Of a stretch of 64,000 nt of DNA, positions 52,546-63,340 are shown one piece after another. The DNA is taken from positions 9,754 through 73,753 of the forward strand of contig JAGCVC010000001.1 of assembly GCA_017962565.1 (NCBI GenBank). Direction: 5' to 3'. The stretch's first letter is position 1. Each line of letters opens with the position of its first letter. This stretch comes from Alphaproteobacteria bacterium (GTDB lineage: Bacteria; Pseudomonadota; Alphaproteobacteria; CAAHEQ01; UBA3637). The notes below the pieces were generated by a model. It was not told where the DNA came from. It saw nothing but the letters and a program-made list of their open reading frames with translations, and did no database searches. Made by a program: the position numbers and the translations under genes.

Positions 52546-53535
52546 TTAAGTAATACTTGTCACGGCACGGATGTTACCATTACGGTTGATTTGAACAACA
52601 CGCAACTTATCGTGCATTTCCTTTAATGTTTTTTCTCGGTCGATTGTCGGTGTTGTACGCATAATACGTGCAACGAAAGCTCTGTATGCTTCTTCGGTAT
52701 TTTCGGCATGGATAGTTGCAAAACAGTTTTCATGACCAGATCCCATCAGTTCCCAAACCGCGCTGGCATTTGATGTAGAAATTTCACCGCAAATAATCGC
52801 ATCCGGCGTAAAACGCACAATCAAGTCAATCACGCGTGTATAAGAAAACTTATTGGTTTGATCTGTACGAGGCAACACAACATGCACTCTGTTTTTATGC
52901 GGAATAATCAATTCGCGTGTATCTTCAACCGTAATAATGCGCTTATGTTCATCAACCAACTTTATCATATTGTTTAAAAAAGTTGTTTTACCGGTTGCCG
53001 TTCCACCACTAATTAAAATGTGTTCACCTTTTCGAATAGACAATAACAAACGATCGTAAGGATCATCAGGATCTTCTACCTGAGCCATTTTATTTAAAGG
53101 CCGTAACCGTTGCCCTTGTTCCAAATTAAAGTCGCTAAATTCAATCCCGATATCTTCTTTATAAACACGGATGGCTAATGCAACACCACCTGTCAAATCT
53201 TCATTATCATACATTACATTCCGACCACTAATGCCCGTAAAACGATGCCCGCCCGGTAATGTAGCATAAACAACAGGGTTACCTTCTGTCGGTTCAAAAG
53301 ATTGATCATAGCTGTTTGCAATAATATACAAAATATTATTCAAATATTCTCTGGTTAACTTTGGATCTTCCTGTTCTTGCCAAGGATGCTCTCTACGTCC
53401 ACGCAAACGCAACCAAATGGCACCCGGATGGTCAACAGCAACTTCCTCCACACCGTCTTGTTTATACCAGTAAGATAAAGGACGCAGAGCAGATTCTAAA
53501 ACCTTATACGTTTCGGAAATTGATAACTCTGGCAT
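52546..53535 (-). CDS. virB11: Type IV secretion system ATPase VirB11
   Basis: 329 aa; Walker A GGTATGKTT, VirB11/TrbB/GspE-family Asp and His boxes; RBS AAGAGAGGGG; start 15 nt after virB10 stop. Confidence 0.9.
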   Translation of the reverse strand: MPELSISETYKVLESALRPLSYWYKQDGVEEVAVDHPGAIWLRLRGRREHPWQEQEDPKLTREYLNNILYIIANSYDQSFEPTEGNPVVYATLPGGHRFTGISGRNVMYDNEDLTGGVALAIRVYKEDIGIEFSDFNLEQGQRLRPLNKMAQVEDPDDPYDRLLLSIRKGEHILISGGTATGKTTFLNNMIKLVDEHKRIITVEDTRELIIPHKNRVHVVLPRTDQTNKFSYTRVIDLIVRFTPDAIICGEISTSNASAVWELMGSGHENCFATIHAENTEEAYRAFVARIMRTTPTIDREKTLKEMHDKLRVVQINRNGNIRAVTSIT

Positions 53536-53549
53536 TAACCCCTCTCTTT

Positions 53550-56500
53550 TTAATACAGCGTATCTGAAGCATTCACACGACTGGAACCACGTTTTGCCAA
53601 CGGCTTAGCCACACTCTGATTAACCTTGTAGTCCGATAATCCCTGACGAGAACGATAACGATCTTCCAAGCTCTGTTCTTTCTTGGAAGCCGTTTCTTCA
53701 TCTTCATCAGAAGAAGCCGGTGTATAGATATTTTCATCTGTATATTCCGGTTCGTAATAATCCTCATCATCTTCAGATTCTGCTTCATCGGATCCCTGTG
53801 ATCCATTCGTTGCAGCAGGACGTGTCGAACGGTCAGCAGTTGGTCTTTGCTGCATCCGACCAGAATTACCCTTTGGTGTCTGAGCCGCTGTCGGATCCGG
53901 TCCGTTTTCGGCAACATAATCATCTTCATCATCCTGTTCGCTACGTAACCACAAATCATCCATAGCAAACACAGTCATACGCGTACCGGACGGAACAAAA
54001 ACAACCGGCGGAGTTGAAGAAGATTCTTCTATCATCTGCTGGAAGATTTGTTCCATGTCATCCAAGAATCTTTCACGTGCATCTTGTGCAGCTTGAGCTC
54101 TGGCAGATTGAGTAGAAGTACCATAGTTTTCATTGGTAGTTACAGCATCATCTGAGGAAATAATATAACTGATTGCAGAAGTCAATGTTGATTGCAACAA
54201 AGGTTTACCGTAACGAGCTAACCATTGTTCATCCAAGTAAGCAGCTACACCGCCTCGACCTTGAGCATCTCCGGATGTTCCGCTTAAAGTAAACTGCGAT
54301 CCGTCAGGACGGATTAAACGTTCCCAAGAAATTTCCATCATAGACACGTGGTTTGTTCCTGCACCACCCGAACAACGACCGATTAACTTACTACCGGCCG
54401 GGATAACGATATTACGTCCATCTTCAGCAAACACATTACGTTCCACAATTGCAGAAGCAGGCACACTCGGATAACGAGAGTCAATTGAACGTACTAACAC
54501 AGCAGGAATTGCTTTGTCTTTCAAAATCATTCTTGTCATGTCAACCGGCCAAGATGAAACGATCTTTGAACCAAAATCTTTATCCTGTTTTTGTTTTGCA
54601 CGCGCTAAGACACGTCCGTCTGGTGTAATCTTTGCCATATTACGACCAACACCTTGTTTCATTTCTGCCCGTCGACGAGCCAACAAATCACGCATTGCAG
54701 AAGCTTGTGCCGGATCAAACTGTAATTTTTCTTGTGGATAAAGCCCGTTTGCACCCGTAGCACCATTCAATCCTAATTCATCAGCTAACAAATTGCCGGA
54801 TAATGAATAAGGAACACCATTGCGTAAAGTACCAACAACTGCACCGGTTGCATCAACAATTGTATTATCAGGCATTACAAAGAAACTCTTATCCCCGATT
54901 GCAATCCGACGACCCGTTAAACCGGCACCACCTATTCCCGGCGATCCCGCTAACAAATTCTTTACACCGGAAACAAATCCCGTTGAAGAAGTGGGTTTTA
55001 ATTTACCAACAACTTTACCATTGATTTCAACAGTACCATCCGGATGAATCTTTCCGATGATATTACCATTTGCATCACGGATGTTTCCGAATTCGTCAAC
55101 ATAACCGATGACATTACCGTATTTATCATAAACTATACAATTTTTGATGGTATAAAGCAATTCACCATTGTCATCATAGACTGTTCCATCATACTTTTTA
55201 CATGGCGGGTTTGTATCCAATTTACCCAAGATTTTACCATTGACTTCAACAGTACCATCCGGATGAATCTTTCCAATGATATTGCCATCTTTATCGCGAA
55301 TGTTTCCGTATTCATCCACATATCCGATAACATTACCGTATTTATCATACAAGACACAATCTTTAATCCAACCGTTCATTTCACCATTTTCATCATAAAT
55401 GATACCATCGTATTTCTGACACGGTTTTTCAAAGTCTTCAAACATCGTAATTGTGCCATCAGGATTCAAACGTCCTATTGGTTTACCGTTCATATCATAA
55501 ATGATGCCGTCCGGTCCGATCCAGCCGGTTTGATTACCATCCAAATCAAATAACTTACCGTCTTTGATATATCCCGTAATATTACCGTTTGCATCATAAA
55601 TGTAGTTTGGCAAATTCGTTGCATTACCAATCTTATTTCCGGCTAAATCATAGATATTGCCGTCTTCATCCAAATAGCCAATTAAGTTACCGTTTGGATC
55701 ATACAATTTATCATCGGCACCAACCGTAAATAAGTGCTTACCGTTATTGTCAAATACTTTACCGCCTTTATCCATAGAACCGATAATGTTGCCATTATCA
55801 TCAAAGAGCAAGTGGTTCTTTTTGATATCGACAACAGAACCGATCTTGTTGCCGTCCAAATCAACAACCGTTCCATCACCCAATACTTTACCGATAACTT
55901 CACCGTTAGCATTAACAACTTGTCCGTTTCTTAAAACACGACCGATAACGTTTCCGTTTTCATCAACAACAATACCGCGTTTTAATACATGACCGATAAC
56001 ATTGCCATCGTGGTCAATAACCGTTCCGTCTTCCAAAGCACAACCGATTGACACACCTTCCATATTTACAACATCAGCATCCGGCAACGTACGACCCAAC
56101 ACATCACCATTGTCTGCAATAACAGTTCCTTTTAATACAATACCGCCCAAAGATTGACCTTTTTCGTCTTTAGCCAATCCGTCTAATCCGACATAACCGA
56201 CCACTTTGGCATTACCATCAATAATACGACCATCGTAACGAACTTGTCCTTGAATTTGACATTGTTTTGTAACCAATTCTTTCGGAACAACAGCACCTAA
56301 AGTTTTTAATTGATGCTTTCCTTTAACAGCTCCGTTAGAAGCCAAAGGACCAACTTTTGCACCTTTGATATCTGTTACATAACCGTCACCGGTTGAATCA
56401 CCGATAACATTTGTTTGATGATCAATTGCTGTTCTAAAACCAACCAAAGCACCGGCCAAATTACCGTCTGTTCCCAACAACGTTGCATCATCCAAAACGG

Positions 56501-62382: not shown

Positions 62383-63144
62383 TTATCTATTATTTTTCAC
62401 CTTTTCTCTTTCACGAGCATCATATGATTCTTTCGTTTCATCACCAAACTGAGCAACCTTAAAACCTATCGGATTTTTTAATCTGTTTTCCCATCTGTTT
62501 TTGTACGGTTCATATGTCACATAGACAGTCGCCACATAAGGAACAACATTTTCCGTCGCATTTTGAGGCGACATCGTAATCAAATCATAATCAACAATCC
62601 AATATTCACCACCACCTACTGCCACATAAGGAATTGCTGATTTAATAACAACATCACGTGTTATTTGTGAGCTAACTGCTGTTTCCATAACTTTTTGGGC
62701 GCTTTCGGCAAAAACTTGAAATGTATTACCCGTTGATAATAAATCAACCGGACCATTTGCCCCCCAACGGTACGCCATTTCATCTGAATCAGACGTAATT
62801 GTTTTACGTAACGTTACATACTGACGCACCATATCTGCGGTGATACCCTTCAGCAAAGTTTCATTCAACTCAAACGGGCTGACGGTAACCGTTTGCGCTT
62901 TTTTATCTGAAAAAGTTAATTCATATGGCTGCACGCGTTTTAACGGCACTAAAGAAAACAAGCTCATTAACATCAAAAGATTTGTAATAAGGCTGACTAC
63001 AAAAATCATCGCAAAGGCACGTGCAGTCCAAAAATACCGCCTTTCACGCAAATTTTCTTCAGATGCGACATCTCCGAATTTTTTTTCAACGCCCGATGAT
63101 TGCCTCATCTCTTTTGATGAAGTTGAAGCCGAAAAAAGTGCCAT
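62383..63144 (-). CDS. virB8: Type IV secretion system protein VirB8
   Basis: 253 aa bitopic protein (TM FAMIFVVSLITNLLMLMSLF), periplasmic NTF2-like domain with conserved NP[IL]GFxV motif (NPIGFKV). Confidence 0.85.
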   Translation of the reverse strand: MALFSASTSSKEMRQSSGVEKKFGDVASEENLRERRYFWTARAFAMIFVVSLITNLLMLMSLFSLVPLKRVQPYELTFSDKKAQTVTVSPFELNETLLKGITADMVRQYVTLRKTITSDSDEMAYRWGANGPVDLLSTGNTFQVFAESAQKVMETAVSSQITRDVVIKSAIPYVAVGGGEYWIVDYDLITMSPQNATENVVPYVATVYVTYEPYKNRWENRLKNPIGFKVAQFGDETKESYDAREREKVKNNR

Positions 63145-63163
63145 ATGAAGTCACCCTTTTAAA

Positions 63164-63340
63164 TTATGAGAACCATTCCGGTAAATCAGGCAACATTTCG
63201 ACTTCCATACAAGCGCACGGAGAACGCTTTAATTCGGAATAATCCGTACCAATTCCGACCGGTTCTTTTTCATACAATGAACCGCAAGCCATCAGAAAAG
63301 CTGCCAAAACAAGCACAGAAAAAATCAAAATATTCTTCAT
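63164..63340 (-). CDS. virB7: VirB7-like small lipoprotein
   Basis: Lipoprotein signal MKNILIFSVLVLAAFLMAC (lipobox LMAC); ATG at 63340 has strong RBS AAAGGGAG whereas track start 63358 has none; 20 nt upstream of virB8. Confidence 0.7.
   Translation of the reverse strand: MKNILIFSVLVLAAFLMACGSLYEKEPVGIGTDYSELKRSPCACMEVEMLPDLPEWFS

What the first reader, a model, noticed from the sequence alone, without database searches (positions are those of the whole stretch)
52546..63340. virB7-virB8-virB9-virB10-virB11 type IV secretion operon with CagY-like giant VirB10
The gene order and diagnostic motifs identify a P-type T4SS core: VirB7 lipobox, VirB8 NPIGFKV, VirB9 N and C domains, VirB10 TrbI domain and VirB11 Walker A. 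Unusually the VirB10 is 2331 aa, about 5 times normal. About 1700 residues of degenerate 13-residue G-x-V-x-D-x-x-G-x-x-I-G repeats are inserted between the inner-membrane anchor and the outer-membrane-spanning TrbI domain, and a 130-aa acidic tail is appended. The only well-known VirB10 of this size and repeat architecture is Helicobacter CagY, where repeat recombination tunes T4SS function. Finding this design in an alphaproteobacterial rvh-like context alongside an enlarged VirB9 suggests independent acquisition of a variable or extended VirB10, possibly forming an extracellular sheath or needle-like extension. No virD4 or virB2-6 genes lie in this window.
Basis: partly seen in the sequence, partly recalled or inferred. 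Interest (0 to 1): 0.85.

Follow-up and report, generated by a model that had tools for sequence, protein, structure and literature searches.

The report
Giant beta-hairpin VirB10 secretion-system operon
An uncultured gut alphaproteobacterium carries a type IV secretion core operon whose VirB10 protein is five times normal size because about 95 small beta-hairpins sit between its two membrane anchors; this design is conserved in length across a whole clade of gut bacteria, so it looks like a fixed structural part, not a variable one as in Helicobacter CagY.

Summary
The minus strand of 52546-63358 encodes virB7-like, virB8, virB9, virB10 and virB11, and VirB10 is 2331 aa with a C-terminal TrbI domain. 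Three details need correcting. The repeat period is 17 aa (51 nt), not 13. The repeats belong to the beta-flower/DUF3659 hairpin family. An ASH/PapD-like Ig domain precedes the array.

The CagY analogy is only superficial:
- CagY repeats are alpha-helical; these are all-beta.
- The DNA copies are 60-75% identical, apart from one 219-nt duplication at 81-85%.
- All 19 complete genes from related species-level genomes encode 2085-2609 aa.
- Three strain variants differ by 1-4 substitutions and no gaps.
- Non-synonymous divergence (dN) in the array equals that in TrbI.
- Length varies only in a 73-aa module, with none detected to four copies between species.

Topology places the array in the periplasm, not outside the cell. 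A sister clade splits the protein into an inner-membrane piece and a Sec-exported TrbI piece. The same hairpins also occur in the periplasmic Tad-pilus protein CpaB. VirB9 is enlarged by a SPOR-like domain. A second, divergent VirB8 gene lies at 752-1621.

My best reading is a rigid periplasmic scaffold that replaces VirB10's flexible linker. This is a new variant of a known system. I found no paper describing it.

The parts
63164..63358 (-). virB7-like lipoprotein gene (64 aa; alternative start at 63340 gives 58 aa)
   Evidence: Lipobox LMAC. No Pfam hit. Conserved lipobox plus EPVGIG...ELK.SPCAC motif at the same operon position in 6 relatives.
62383..63144 (-). virB8 (253 aa, bitopic, NPIG motif)
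   Evidence: PF04335 at 8e-15. One TM at aa 39-57. Weak match to Bartonella VirB8 4lso.
60651..62261 (-). virB9 (536 aa): signal peptide, VirB9 N and C domains separated by a G/S-rich linker, variable linker, C-terminal SPOR-like domain
   Evidence: PF03524 at 1.8e-11, aa 88-353. All 17 aligned homologues are 490-615 aa.
60654..60908 (-). SPOR-like C-terminal domain of VirB9 (aa 452-536, two conserved Cys)
   Evidence: PF05036 at E 0.0043 here. It matches in 15 of 17 homologues, best 4.3e-5. Strongly conserved block in alignment A3.
53550..60545 (-). Giant virB10 (2331 aa)
60420..60545 (-). VirB10 cytoplasmic N-terminus and single TM helix (aa 1-42)
   Evidence: Hydropathy peak at aa 17-35. 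The N-terminal motif SSSEQYVKKSNR is conserved across the family.
59970..60308 (-). ASH/PapD-like Ig domain (aa ~80-192), followed by a conserved CxxC
54804..59909 (-). Array of ~95 beta-hairpins (189 predicted strands, 17-aa period), aa 213-1914, ~186 kDa
   Evidence: Bflower_2 at 1.6e-105, Bflower at 5.5e-48, DUF3659 at 3.4e-19. 51-nt spacing. Autocorrelation peak at lag 17. AF2 pLDDT is mostly above 85-90, and pTM is 0.81 for aa 41-1200.
54996..55409 (-). Two tandem copies of a 73-aa, two-cysteine, 4-hairpin module (aa 1713-1850); the only copy-number-variable part
   Evidence: TRF finds a 219-nt period, 1.8 copies, 81% match. Indels among relatives map here. None detected to 4 copies among species.
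54528..54803 (-). Linker with a predicted helix (aa ~1945-1967) between the array and the TrbI barrel
   Evidence: AF2 model.
53946..54527 (-). TrbI/VirB10 C-terminal beta-barrel with a two-helix antenna projection (aa 2007-2200)
   Evidence: PF03743 at 3.5e-34. phmmer to ComB10 2bhv at 8e-20, X. citri VirB10 6gyb at 9e-15, CagY at 6e-8. Foldseek to 6gyb at 8e-12, plus TrwE, TraF, CagY and DotG. Helices at aa ~2100-2134 and 2148-2175.
53553..53900 (-). Acidic, disordered C-terminal tail (aa 2216-2331) ending in a conserved L-F/Y
   Evidence: pLDDT below 50. 21% D+E. The fastest-evolving part (dN 0.38-0.83). The terminal LF/LY is conserved.
52546..53535 (-). virB11 ATPase (329 aa)
   Evidence: TIGR02788 at 3.3e-44. 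PF00437. Matches to HP0525 and Brucella VirB11.
752..1621 (-). Second, divergent VirB8-like gene (289 aa, one TM, NPYY in place of NPxG), 61 kb from the operon
   Evidence: BLASTP E 1e-8 to 1e-10 to the first VirB8 paralogue of relatives' operons. TM at aa 52-70. No Pfam or PDB hit.

Best explanation
This is the chromosomal outer-membrane-core operon (virB7-virB8-virB9-virB10-virB11) of a divergent, rvh-like P-type type IV secretion system. The host is an uncultured gut or rumen alphaproteobacterium.

Shown:
- VirB10 keeps the canonical ends: a cytoplasmic N-terminus plus one TM helix, and a C-terminal TrbI barrel with a two-helix antenna.
- The usual flexible proline-rich periplasmic linker is replaced by an ASH-type Ig domain followed by about 95 tandem 17-residue beta-hairpins of the beta-flower/DUF3659 family (aa 213-1914, ~186 kDa).
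- The array is an ancient, collinear, length-conserved element under purifying selection.
- It is shared by more than 100 protein clusters from human-gut and ruminant MAGs.
- Only a 73-aa module near its TrbI-proximal end changes copy number between species.

Inferred:
- The array is periplasmic and folds as a rigid body.
- If the ring has the 14 copies seen in other systems, the arrays would add roughly 2.6 MDa of beta structure around or beneath the core. They would form a fixed scaffold, spacer or cage linking the inner-membrane complex to the outer-membrane cap.
- VirB9 adds a SPOR-like domain that probably ties the machine to peptidoglycan.
- A sister clade cuts the protein in the middle of the array into an anchored half and a Sec-exported half. 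The hairpin arrays therefore probably associate with each other non-covalently.

The confidence of 0.55 refers to the inferred scaffold/coupler mechanism. The gene identities and the architecture are near certain.
For: - Identity of the five genes.
- Hairpin family and period.
- AF2: aa 41-1200 has pLDDT 86.6 and pTM 0.81; aa 1201-1850 has pLDDT above 90.
- Family-wide conservation: 124 homologues, all Bflower+TrbI, median length 2202 aa. All 19 complete genes from 20 related species-level loci encode 2085-2609 aa.
- Purifying selection: dN in the array is 0.06-0.14 against 0.12 in TrbI, and dN/dS is about 0.05-0.12, versus the closest species.
- No strain-level indels.
- Periplasmic placement: TM at aa 17-35. 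Split forms have a Sec signal peptide on the TrbI half. The same hairpins are inserted in the periplasmic Tad protein CpaB/RcpC.
- The closest normal-size VirB10s, including Holosporales MAGs, are anchor+ASH+TrbI. The array therefore looks like an insertion.
- VirB9 SPOR-like domain.
- No paper in the library links beta-flower or DUF3659 with VirB10.
Against: - The three-dimensional shape of the array could not be inspected. The tool returns no coordinates, so 'scaffold/cage' is inference.
- Whether the hairpins close into discrete 4- or 5-fold flowers or form a continuous ribbon is unresolved (one search shows no clean domain boundaries).
- The stoichiometry of 14 is borrowed from other systems.
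- virB2-6 and virD4 were not found in the window or in the flanks of relatives. A complete, functional machine is therefore assumed, not shown.
- dS is saturated (above 1), so dN/dS values are rough.
- The strain sample is three.
- No expression or experimental data exist.
Confidence: 0.55

Rival explanations
1. The hairpin array is mainly a cell-wall or glycan-binding module that anchors or positions the secretion system in peptidoglycan. It would work together with the SPOR-like domain gained by VirB9.
For: - Foldseek finds local similarity of the array to the CROPs hairpin repeats of large clostridial toxins (7pog, 8x2h) and to glucansucrase glucan-binding repeats.
- VirB9 carries a SPOR-like domain in 15 of 17 homologues.
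Against: - The structural matches have very low TM-scores (0.03-0.08) and low probability for the CROPs hits.
- About 95 hairpins per chain is far more than a binding module needs.
- No ligand-binding residues could be tested.
- This reading is compatible with the scaffold explanation and does not exclude it.
Confidence: 0.2
2. The array is exposed outside the cell as a sheath, adhesin or needle-like extension. This is the first reader's suggestion, by analogy with reports for the CagY repeat region.
For: - The array is large and hydrophilic, with conserved Cys pairs.
- The surrounding genomes are rich in giant pilin-like, Cys-rich surface proteins.
- The system is probably host- or protist-directed, because it is chromosomal and conserved in synteny.
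Against: - The array lies between the inner-membrane TM helix and the periplasmic entry of the TrbI barrel.
- The split form exports the TrbI half by an ordinary Sec signal peptide, with no sign of an outer-membrane translocation device.
- The same module sits in periplasmic CpaB.
- The array evolves as slowly as the TrbI core. The fastest-evolving parts are the ASH domain and the tail, which is not what a surface-exposed antigen would show.
Confidence: 0.1
3. It is a CagY-type contingency element. Recombination among the repeats would change VirB10 length within a population to tune or switch secretion.
For: - One 219-nt tandem duplication at 81-85% identity.
- The copy number of this 73-aa module ranges from none detected to four between species.
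Against: - All other DNA repeat copies are only 60-75% identical, with no long exact repeats.
- About 1500 aa of the array are collinear without indels among relatives down to 54% identity.
- Three strain variants have 0 gaps.
- Length is conserved over the whole family.
Confidence: 0.04
4. The 7-kb ORF is an assembly artefact or a decaying pseudogene.
For: The source is a repetitive gene in a short-read MAG.
Against: - At least three independent assemblies yield an identical 2331-aa product.
- The ORF is intact in 19 of 19 complete species-level genes.
- Purifying selection acts on it.
- The repeats are too diverged to misassemble.
Confidence: 0.01

Closest known systems
Canonical VirB10/TrbI proteins (A. 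tumefaciens VirB10, pKM101 TraF, R388 TrwE, X. citri VirB10, H. pylori ComB10)
   Same: - N-terminal cytoplasmic segment plus one TM helix.
- C-terminal TrbI beta-barrel with a two-helix antenna. Sequence and fold matches.
- Encoded between virB9 and virB11.
   Different: - 2331 aa against about 380-480 aa.
- The proline-rich periplasmic linker is replaced by an ASH Ig domain and about 95 beta-hairpins.
- A 116-aa acidic tail is added after the barrel.
Helicobacter pylori CagY
   Same: - A giant VirB10 homologue with a large repeat region N-terminal to the VirB10 domain.
- The partner VirB9 homologue is also enlarged.
   Different: - CagY repeats are alpha-helical modules (Delahay 2008, via PMC9371333); these are beta-hairpins of an unrelated family.
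- There are no recombinogenic DNA repeats apart from one diverged duplication.
- Length is conserved across species and strains.
- No CagM, Cag3 or CagT-type partners are present.
- At 2.1-2.6 k aa fused, or 2.6-2.8 k aa summed in the split clade, it is larger than CagY (about 1.9 k aa, from my own knowledge).
Legionella DotG/IcmE
   Same: A VirB10 homologue enlarged by a central repeat region.
   Different: - Only the C-terminal domain matches (NF033900, E 1e-4).
- DotG's repeats are pentapeptide repeats (my own knowledge), not 17-aa hairpins.
- DotG belongs to the type IVB system.
Rickettsiales vir homologue (rvh) T4SS
   Same: - Alphaproteobacterial and chromosomal.
- virB7-virB8-virB9-virB10-virB11 order, with a second highly divergent VirB8 paralogue placed just upstream of virB7 in relatives. 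This matches the R. typhi layout (PMC4676284).
- Genes are scattered: the paralogue is 61 kb away in this window.
   Different: - No virD4 follows virB11.
- No second virB9 was seen.
- VirB10 is giant. Rickettsial VirB10s are enlarged only in the antenna loop (10.1101/2025.08.29.673095).
- The closest normal-size VirB10s found here include Holosporales MAGs (546 aa) and Microvirga (590 aa).
Beta-flower fold proteins (Pfam PF21784/PF21785, clan CL0395; Durairaj et al. 2023, PMC10584680)
   Same: - Strong HMM matches.
- The [DNEQ]xxG hairpin-tip motif.
- Short antiparallel strands with alternating loop lengths in the AF2 models.
   Different: - Described beta-flowers are single ~100-residue domains with 4, 5 or 6 hairpins.
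- Here about 95 hairpins run without clear domain boundaries, inside a secretion-system subunit.
ASH-TrbI VirB10s of about 520-555 aa (P0192, P0205 from Holosporales MAGs, P0213)
   Same: Same ASH/HYDIN-like Ig domain followed by TrbI, at 34-38% identity over the TrbI region, in a virB7-8-9-...-10-11 context.
   Different: - No hairpin array.
- A lipoprotein-type N-terminus in place of a TM helix.
- An extra 461-aa lipoprotein gene lies between virB9 and virB10.

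Membership tests
VirB10/TrbI (P-type T4SS core subunit) | C-terminal TrbI beta-barrel domain | tested here: met
   PF03743 at 3.5e-34. ComB10 8e-20 and 6gyb 9e-15. Foldseek 8e-12 to 6gyb.
VirB10/TrbI (P-type T4SS core subunit) | Two-helix antenna projection within the barrel | tested here: met
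   The AF2 model has helices at aa ~2100-2134 and 2148-2175, separated by a short loop. This comes from a model, not from experiment.
VirB10/TrbI (P-type T4SS core subunit) | N-terminal cytoplasmic segment and a single inner-membrane TM helix on the same chain as the barrel | tested here: met
   Hydropathy peak at aa 17-35. In the sister clade this feature is not met, because the chain is split.
VirB10/TrbI (P-type T4SS core subunit) | Proline-rich extended periplasmic linker | tested here: not met
   The array contains 3.4% Pro. The region is a folded ASH domain plus hairpins.
VirB10/TrbI (P-type T4SS core subunit) | Encoded with VirB7, VirB8, VirB9 and VirB11 | tested here: met
Complete VirB/D4-type T4SS | VirB4 ATPase, VirB6, VirB3, VirB2 and VirD4 are present in the genome | not testable with these tools
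   None is detectable in the 64-kb window or within 10 kb of the operon in relatives. The whole MAG could not be scanned.
CagY-type VirB10 | Repeat region built of alpha-helical modules | tested here: not met
   The AF2 model shows 189 beta-strands and no helices in aa 213-1914. Pfam assigns Bflower.
CagY-type VirB10 | Near-identical DNA direct repeats that allow in-frame recombination, with length polymorphism among strains | tested here: not met
   Copies are 60-75% identical, with one 219-nt duplication at 81-85%. Three strain variants have 0 gaps. The strain sample is small.
CagY-type VirB10 | Cag-specific partners (CagM, Cag3, CagT) | tested here: not met
   The operon holds only a 58-64 aa VirB7-like gene, VirB8, VirB9 and VirB11.
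Rickettsiales rvh T4SS | Duplicated, highly divergent VirB8 paralogue lacking the NPxG motif | tested here: met
   Window 752-1621 has NPYY. The paralogue sits upstream of virB7 in L005-L008 and L029. Layout compared with PMC4676284.
Rickettsiales rvh T4SS | virD4 immediately downstream of virB11 | tested here: not met
   A convergent 122-aa ORF and housekeeping genes follow virB11. The same holds in relatives.
Rickettsiales rvh T4SS | Duplicated virB9 and virB4, multiple virB6, and no virB5 | not testable with these tools
   Only one virB9 was seen per locus.
Rickettsiales rvh T4SS | VirB7 with the P[ILV]NK motif | tested here: not met
   The conserved motif here is EPVGIG...SPCAC. The P[ILV]NK motif is taken from PMC2653234.
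Beta-flower fold (PF21784/PF21785) | HMM match above the gathering threshold and a [DNEQ]xxG hairpin-tip motif | tested here: met
   347 bits against a cut-off of 38, and 163 bits against 25. The motif is visible throughout the sequence. Motif definition from PMC10584680.
Beta-flower fold (PF21784/PF21785) | Hairpins close into discrete 4-, 5- or 6-fold shallow barrels | tested here: inconclusive
SPOR domain (VirB9 C-terminus) | PF05036 match | tested here: inconclusive
   Below the gathering score in this protein (17.8 bits against 21, E 0.0043), but matched in 15 of 17 homologues, best 4.3e-5. Peptidoglycan binding was not tested.

The most novel reading that the evidence does not exclude
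The hairpin arrays of the VirB10 ring assemble into a very large, ordered periplasmic cage or tube. This would define a new architectural class of T4SS in which the inner-membrane and outer-membrane halves are coupled by non-covalent association of beta-hairpin arrays, rather than by one continuous VirB10 chain. The naturally split clade points this way. The same module, also recruited by the Tad-pilus protein CpaB, would be a general 'periplasmic extension' device, perhaps reflecting an unusual envelope in these gut alphaproteobacteria.
Probability: 0.3. Interest if true: 0.85.

Novelty: new variant of a known kind. Interest (0 to 1): 0.68.

Why it matters
- VirB10 is viewed as the energy-sensing bridge that spans both membranes of a type IV secretion system. 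Here its flexible linker is replaced by about 186 kDa of folded beta structure. In a sister clade the bridge is cut in two, which is a natural test of whether covalent continuity is needed.
- It gives the recently described beta-flower fold, whose function is unknown, a concrete cellular setting: the periplasmic parts of trans-envelope machines (VirB10 and CpaB).
- The family is conserved in a clade of uncultured alphaproteobacteria from human and ruminant guts. The family's genes are deposited as 'hypothetical', 'DUF3659' or 'TrbI/VirB10 family' proteins. The system is probably central to how these bacteria interact with hosts, protists or neighbours.
- It shows that large repeat-bearing VirB10s arose at least three times (CagY, DotG and this family) with unrelated repeats. 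A repeat region does not by itself imply phase or antigenic variation.

Tried and rejected
- The Foldseek AFDB50 library was not available. UniProt or AFDB relatives of the array could not be listed.
- The first job against the protein representatives library was lost and had to be re-run.
- The promoter and terminator scan of 51900-64000 gave no more sites than shuffles and was not used.
- Pfam scans of the 10 unannotated ORFs upstream of the operon in L005 and L006 gave nothing. They cannot be called VirB6, VirB3 or VirB2.
- phmmer of VirB9 and of the VirB8-like paralogue against PDB sequences found nothing.
- The self-HMM attempt to cut the array into discrete flower domains failed, because hits overlap out of register.
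- Literature searches for beta-flower with T4SS, VirB10 with DUF3659, Rs-D84 with T4SS, and Enterousia returned nothing relevant. I guessed the order-level taxonomy (Rs-D84, RF32 or near Holosporales) but could not verify it, so I do not claim it.
- The 461-aa ORF between virB9 and virB10 in the Holosporales-type locus L031 is an unrelated lipoprotein, not a VirB10 N-piece.

Full report
**What is in the window.**
Five co-directional ORFs lie on the minus strand of 52546-63358.

| Gene | Coordinates | Size | Key evidence |
|---|---|---|---|
| virB7-like lipoprotein | 63164-63358 | 64 aa (58 from the second Met) | lipobox LMAC; no Pfam hit |
| virB8 | 62383-63144 | 253 aa | PF04335 at 8e-15; NPIG motif |
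| virB9 | 60651-62261 | 536 aa | CagX/VirB9 at 1.8e-11 |
| virB10 | 53550-60545 | 2331 aa | TrbI at aa 2007-2200, E 3.5e-34 |
| virB11 | 52546-53535 | 329 aa | TIGR02788 at 3e-44 |

Gaps between the genes are 14-121 nt. The small lipoprotein is conserved, with an EPVGIG...ELK.SPCAC motif, at the same operon position in six relatives.

The surroundings are ordinary chromosome. dnaE, uvrD, lolC/E-like, trkH, tatD, an AsmA-family gene, tsf and rpsB lie on one side, and rplY, pth and ychF on the other. The exact VirB10 protein is deposited as a hypothetical protein of a MAG named only 'Alphaproteobacteria bacterium'. Sample names point to the ruminant gut catalogue.

**The gene is real.**
- NCBI, ENA (megahit) and Logan assemblies from different samples give a 2331-aa product. 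The strain variants differ by 1 and 4 substitutions and have no gaps.
- At the DNA level the repeats are only 60-75% identical. Collapse or expansion during assembly is therefore not expected.

**Anatomy of VirB10.**
- aa 1-42: a cytoplasmic segment and one TM helix.
- aa 213-1914: the repeat region.
- aa 1915-2006: a linker with one helix.
- aa 2007-2200: the TrbI barrel with two long antenna helices. It matches ComB10, X. citri VirB10, TrwE, TraF, CagY and DotG by sequence and by fold.
- aa 2216-2331: an acidic, disordered tail ending in a conserved L-F/Y.

**The repeats.**
Three results agree:
- Repeat spacings in the DNA are 51, 102 and 153 nt.
- Protein autocorrelation has a single peak at lag 17.
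- The predicted strands recur every 17 residues in 113 of 187 cases.

Pfam assigns the region to Bflower_2 (E 1.6e-105, 15 stretches), Bflower (5.5e-48) and DUF3659, with weaker RHS/YD matches. These are the beta-flower families defined in 2023 from AlphaFold models. Their function is unknown, and no similarity to solved structures was found when the fold was described (PMC10584680).

Two AlphaFold2 runs with a 72-sequence alignment predict 189 short strands, about 95 hairpins, with pLDDT mostly above 85-90. For aa 41-1200 the pTM is 0.81, which means the model is confident about the overall arrangement and not only about local hairpins.

**Is it CagY-like? In size only.**
- CagY's repeats are alpha-helical modules (Delahay 2008, cited in PMC9371333). 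These are all-beta and unrelated.
- CagY varies through recombination between near-identical DNA repeats. Here the only such substrate is one 219-nt tandem duplication at 81-85% identity (55000-55397).
- All 124 homologues recovered carry Bflower plus TrbI. Their median length is 2202 aa, and 90% fall between about 2060 and 2420 aa, down to 28-30% identity.
- In 20 species-level genomes, all gut or rumen MAGs, the gene upstream of virB11 encodes 2085-2609 aa in every complete case.
- Among relatives of 54-89% identity, the first ~1500 residues of the array are almost entirely collinear (one relative has two small deletions of 7 and 16 aa). Every indel of 50 aa or more maps to aa ~1707-1830. 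That is the 73-aa, two-cysteine module, present in none detected to four copies.
- Against the closest species, dN in the array (0.06-0.14) equals dN in TrbI (0.12). The ASH domain (0.33) and the tail (0.38) evolve fastest. dS is saturated, so the ratios of about 0.05-0.12 are rough.

The array is therefore a constrained structural element, with one small module whose copy number changes between species.

**Where the array sits.**
It lies between the TM helix and the periplasmic start of the TrbI barrel, so the simplest placement is the periplasm. Two independent observations agree.
- In a sister clade the protein is encoded by two translationally coupled genes: L007 (1037 + 1542 aa), L029 (1355 + 1472 aa) and L030 (1100 + 1647 aa). 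The first gene carries the N-terminus, TM helix, ASH domain and hairpins. The second starts with a normal Sec signal peptide, followed by hairpins and TrbI. In L007 the junction has a Shine-Dalgarno sequence and a GTG start.
- The same hairpins are inserted in CpaB/RcpC, the periplasmic ring protein of Tad pili.

An extracellular sheath is therefore unlikely, although it is not excluded.

**Origin.**
A search of every 50%-identity cluster representative with the TrbI region shows three groups. Giants of 2.1-2.4 k aa come first. The split C-pieces of 1.4-1.65 k aa come next. Below about 42% identity come normal proteins of 500-630 aa. The nearest normal-size proteins, including ones from Holosporales MAGs, have a lipoprotein-type N-terminus, an ASH/HYDIN-like Ig domain and TrbI. 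The array thus looks like an insertion between ASH and TrbI in an alphaproteobacterial lineage.

**VirB9.**
All 17 homologues are 490-615 aa. The extra length comes from a G/S-rich linker between the VirB9 N and C domains, a variable linker, and a conserved ~85-residue C-terminal domain with two cysteines. That domain matches SPOR in 15 of 17 homologues, best 4.3e-5. A peptidoglycan tether is a reasonable inference. It has not been tested.

**rvh-like context.**
Relatives have the order virB8(divergent)-virB7-virB8-virB9-virB10-virB11. This matches the R. typhi layout rvhB8-II | rvhB7-rvhB8-I-rvhB9-II-rvhB10-rvhB11 (PMC4676284). In this window the divergent paralogue has moved. It lies at 752-1621, has one TM helix and carries NPYY in place of NPxG. 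Against rvh membership:
- No virD4 follows virB11.
- No second virB9 was seen.
- The VirB7 motif differs from P[ILV]NK.

virB2-6 and virD4 were not found in the window or within 10 kb of the operon in relatives. Whether the machine is complete remains open.

**Mechanism.**
Shown: the gene identities, the architecture, the conservation, the lack of a recombination substrate, and the split form.

Inferred: the array is a rigid periplasmic module that replaces the flexible linker of canonical VirB10. If the ring has 14 copies, as in other systems, the arrays add about 2.6 MDa. A natural cut in the middle of the array is tolerated, so I infer that arrays bind one another and that this contact can stand in for the covalent bridge between the two membranes. 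I give this scaffold/coupler reading about 0.55. The rivals are a glycan or peptidoglycan-binding role at 0.2 (which overlaps with it), surface display at 0.1, a contingency locus at 0.04 and an artefact at 0.01.

**Novelty.**
No paper in the library links beta-flower or DUF3659 with VirB10 or T4SS. Database names are 'hypothetical', 'DUF3659 domain-containing' or 'TrbI/VirB10 family protein'. I class this as a new variant of a known kind: a T4SS with an expanded VirB10. The repeat type, its size, its conservation and its natural split are new.

Noticed in passing
window 752-1621 (-): A divergent VirB8-like gene (289 aa, one TM, NPYY instead of NPxG) lies 61 kb from the operon. In relatives this paralogue sits directly upstream of virB7. 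The duplication resembles RvhB8-II of Rickettsiales.
   Followed up: partly
window 1631-9211 (-) and 28365-31082 (-): Two very large ORFs (2526 aa and 905 aa) have no Pfam hit but carry a type IV prepilin-like N-terminus (G|RSMLE + hydrophobic helix). The 2526-aa one is extremely cysteine-rich and lies directly upstream of the VirB8-like gene. Large unannotated ORFs also precede virB8a in L007 (1399 aa) and L029 (1395 aa), but they are not detectably homologous to it.
   Followed up: partly
L009, L017, L021, L023, L024, L025: Genes with the same GRSM[LV]EMLGVLA pilin-like N-terminus recur near the T4SS operon in related genomes. In L017 one starts about 300 nt after virB11.
   Followed up: no
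L007 6884-14629; L029 5931-14419; L030 1702-9949: In a sister clade the giant VirB10 is encoded as two translationally coupled genes. One is an anchored ASH+hairpin piece. The other is a Sec-signal hairpin+TrbI piece. Their summed length is 2579-2827 aa.
   Followed up: yes
proteins P0312-P0318: Tad-pilus CpaB/RcpC proteins (SAF + RcpC domains) carry an inserted block of the same beta-flower hairpins. This is a second trans-envelope machine using the module.
   Followed up: partly
L005 461-6405; L006 1-6426: Runs of 5-6 unannotated ORFs (about 250-490 aa) lie directly upstream of virB8a in relatives. They have no Pfam match and no homologue in this window. They may be system-specific components or substrates.
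   Followed up: partly
L031 3689-5074: In the Holosporales-type locus a 461-aa lipoprotein gene of unknown family sits between virB9 and a normal-size ASH-TrbI virB10 that itself has a lipoprotein-type N-terminus.
   Followed up: partly
window 13722-18425 (-), 18873-21605 (+), 41909-43180 (-) and 43220-44464 (-): Large soluble proteins without a clear family: a 1567-aa protein with weak helical-repeat hits, a 910-aa pentapeptide-repeat protein, and two tandem paralogous proteins of about 420 aa. They are possible secretion substrates, but nothing links them to the T4SS.
   Followed up: no
window 37021-38250 (-): A 409-aa protein next to the lolCDE-like genes has a MORN_2 'MORN repeat variant' hit. 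The beta-flower paper lists that annotation among relatives of the fold.
   Followed up: no
window 53553-53900 (-), and the C-termini of P0154, P0160 and P0174: The otherwise poorly conserved acidic tail of VirB10 ends in a conserved L-F/Y in both the fused and the split forms.
   Followed up: no
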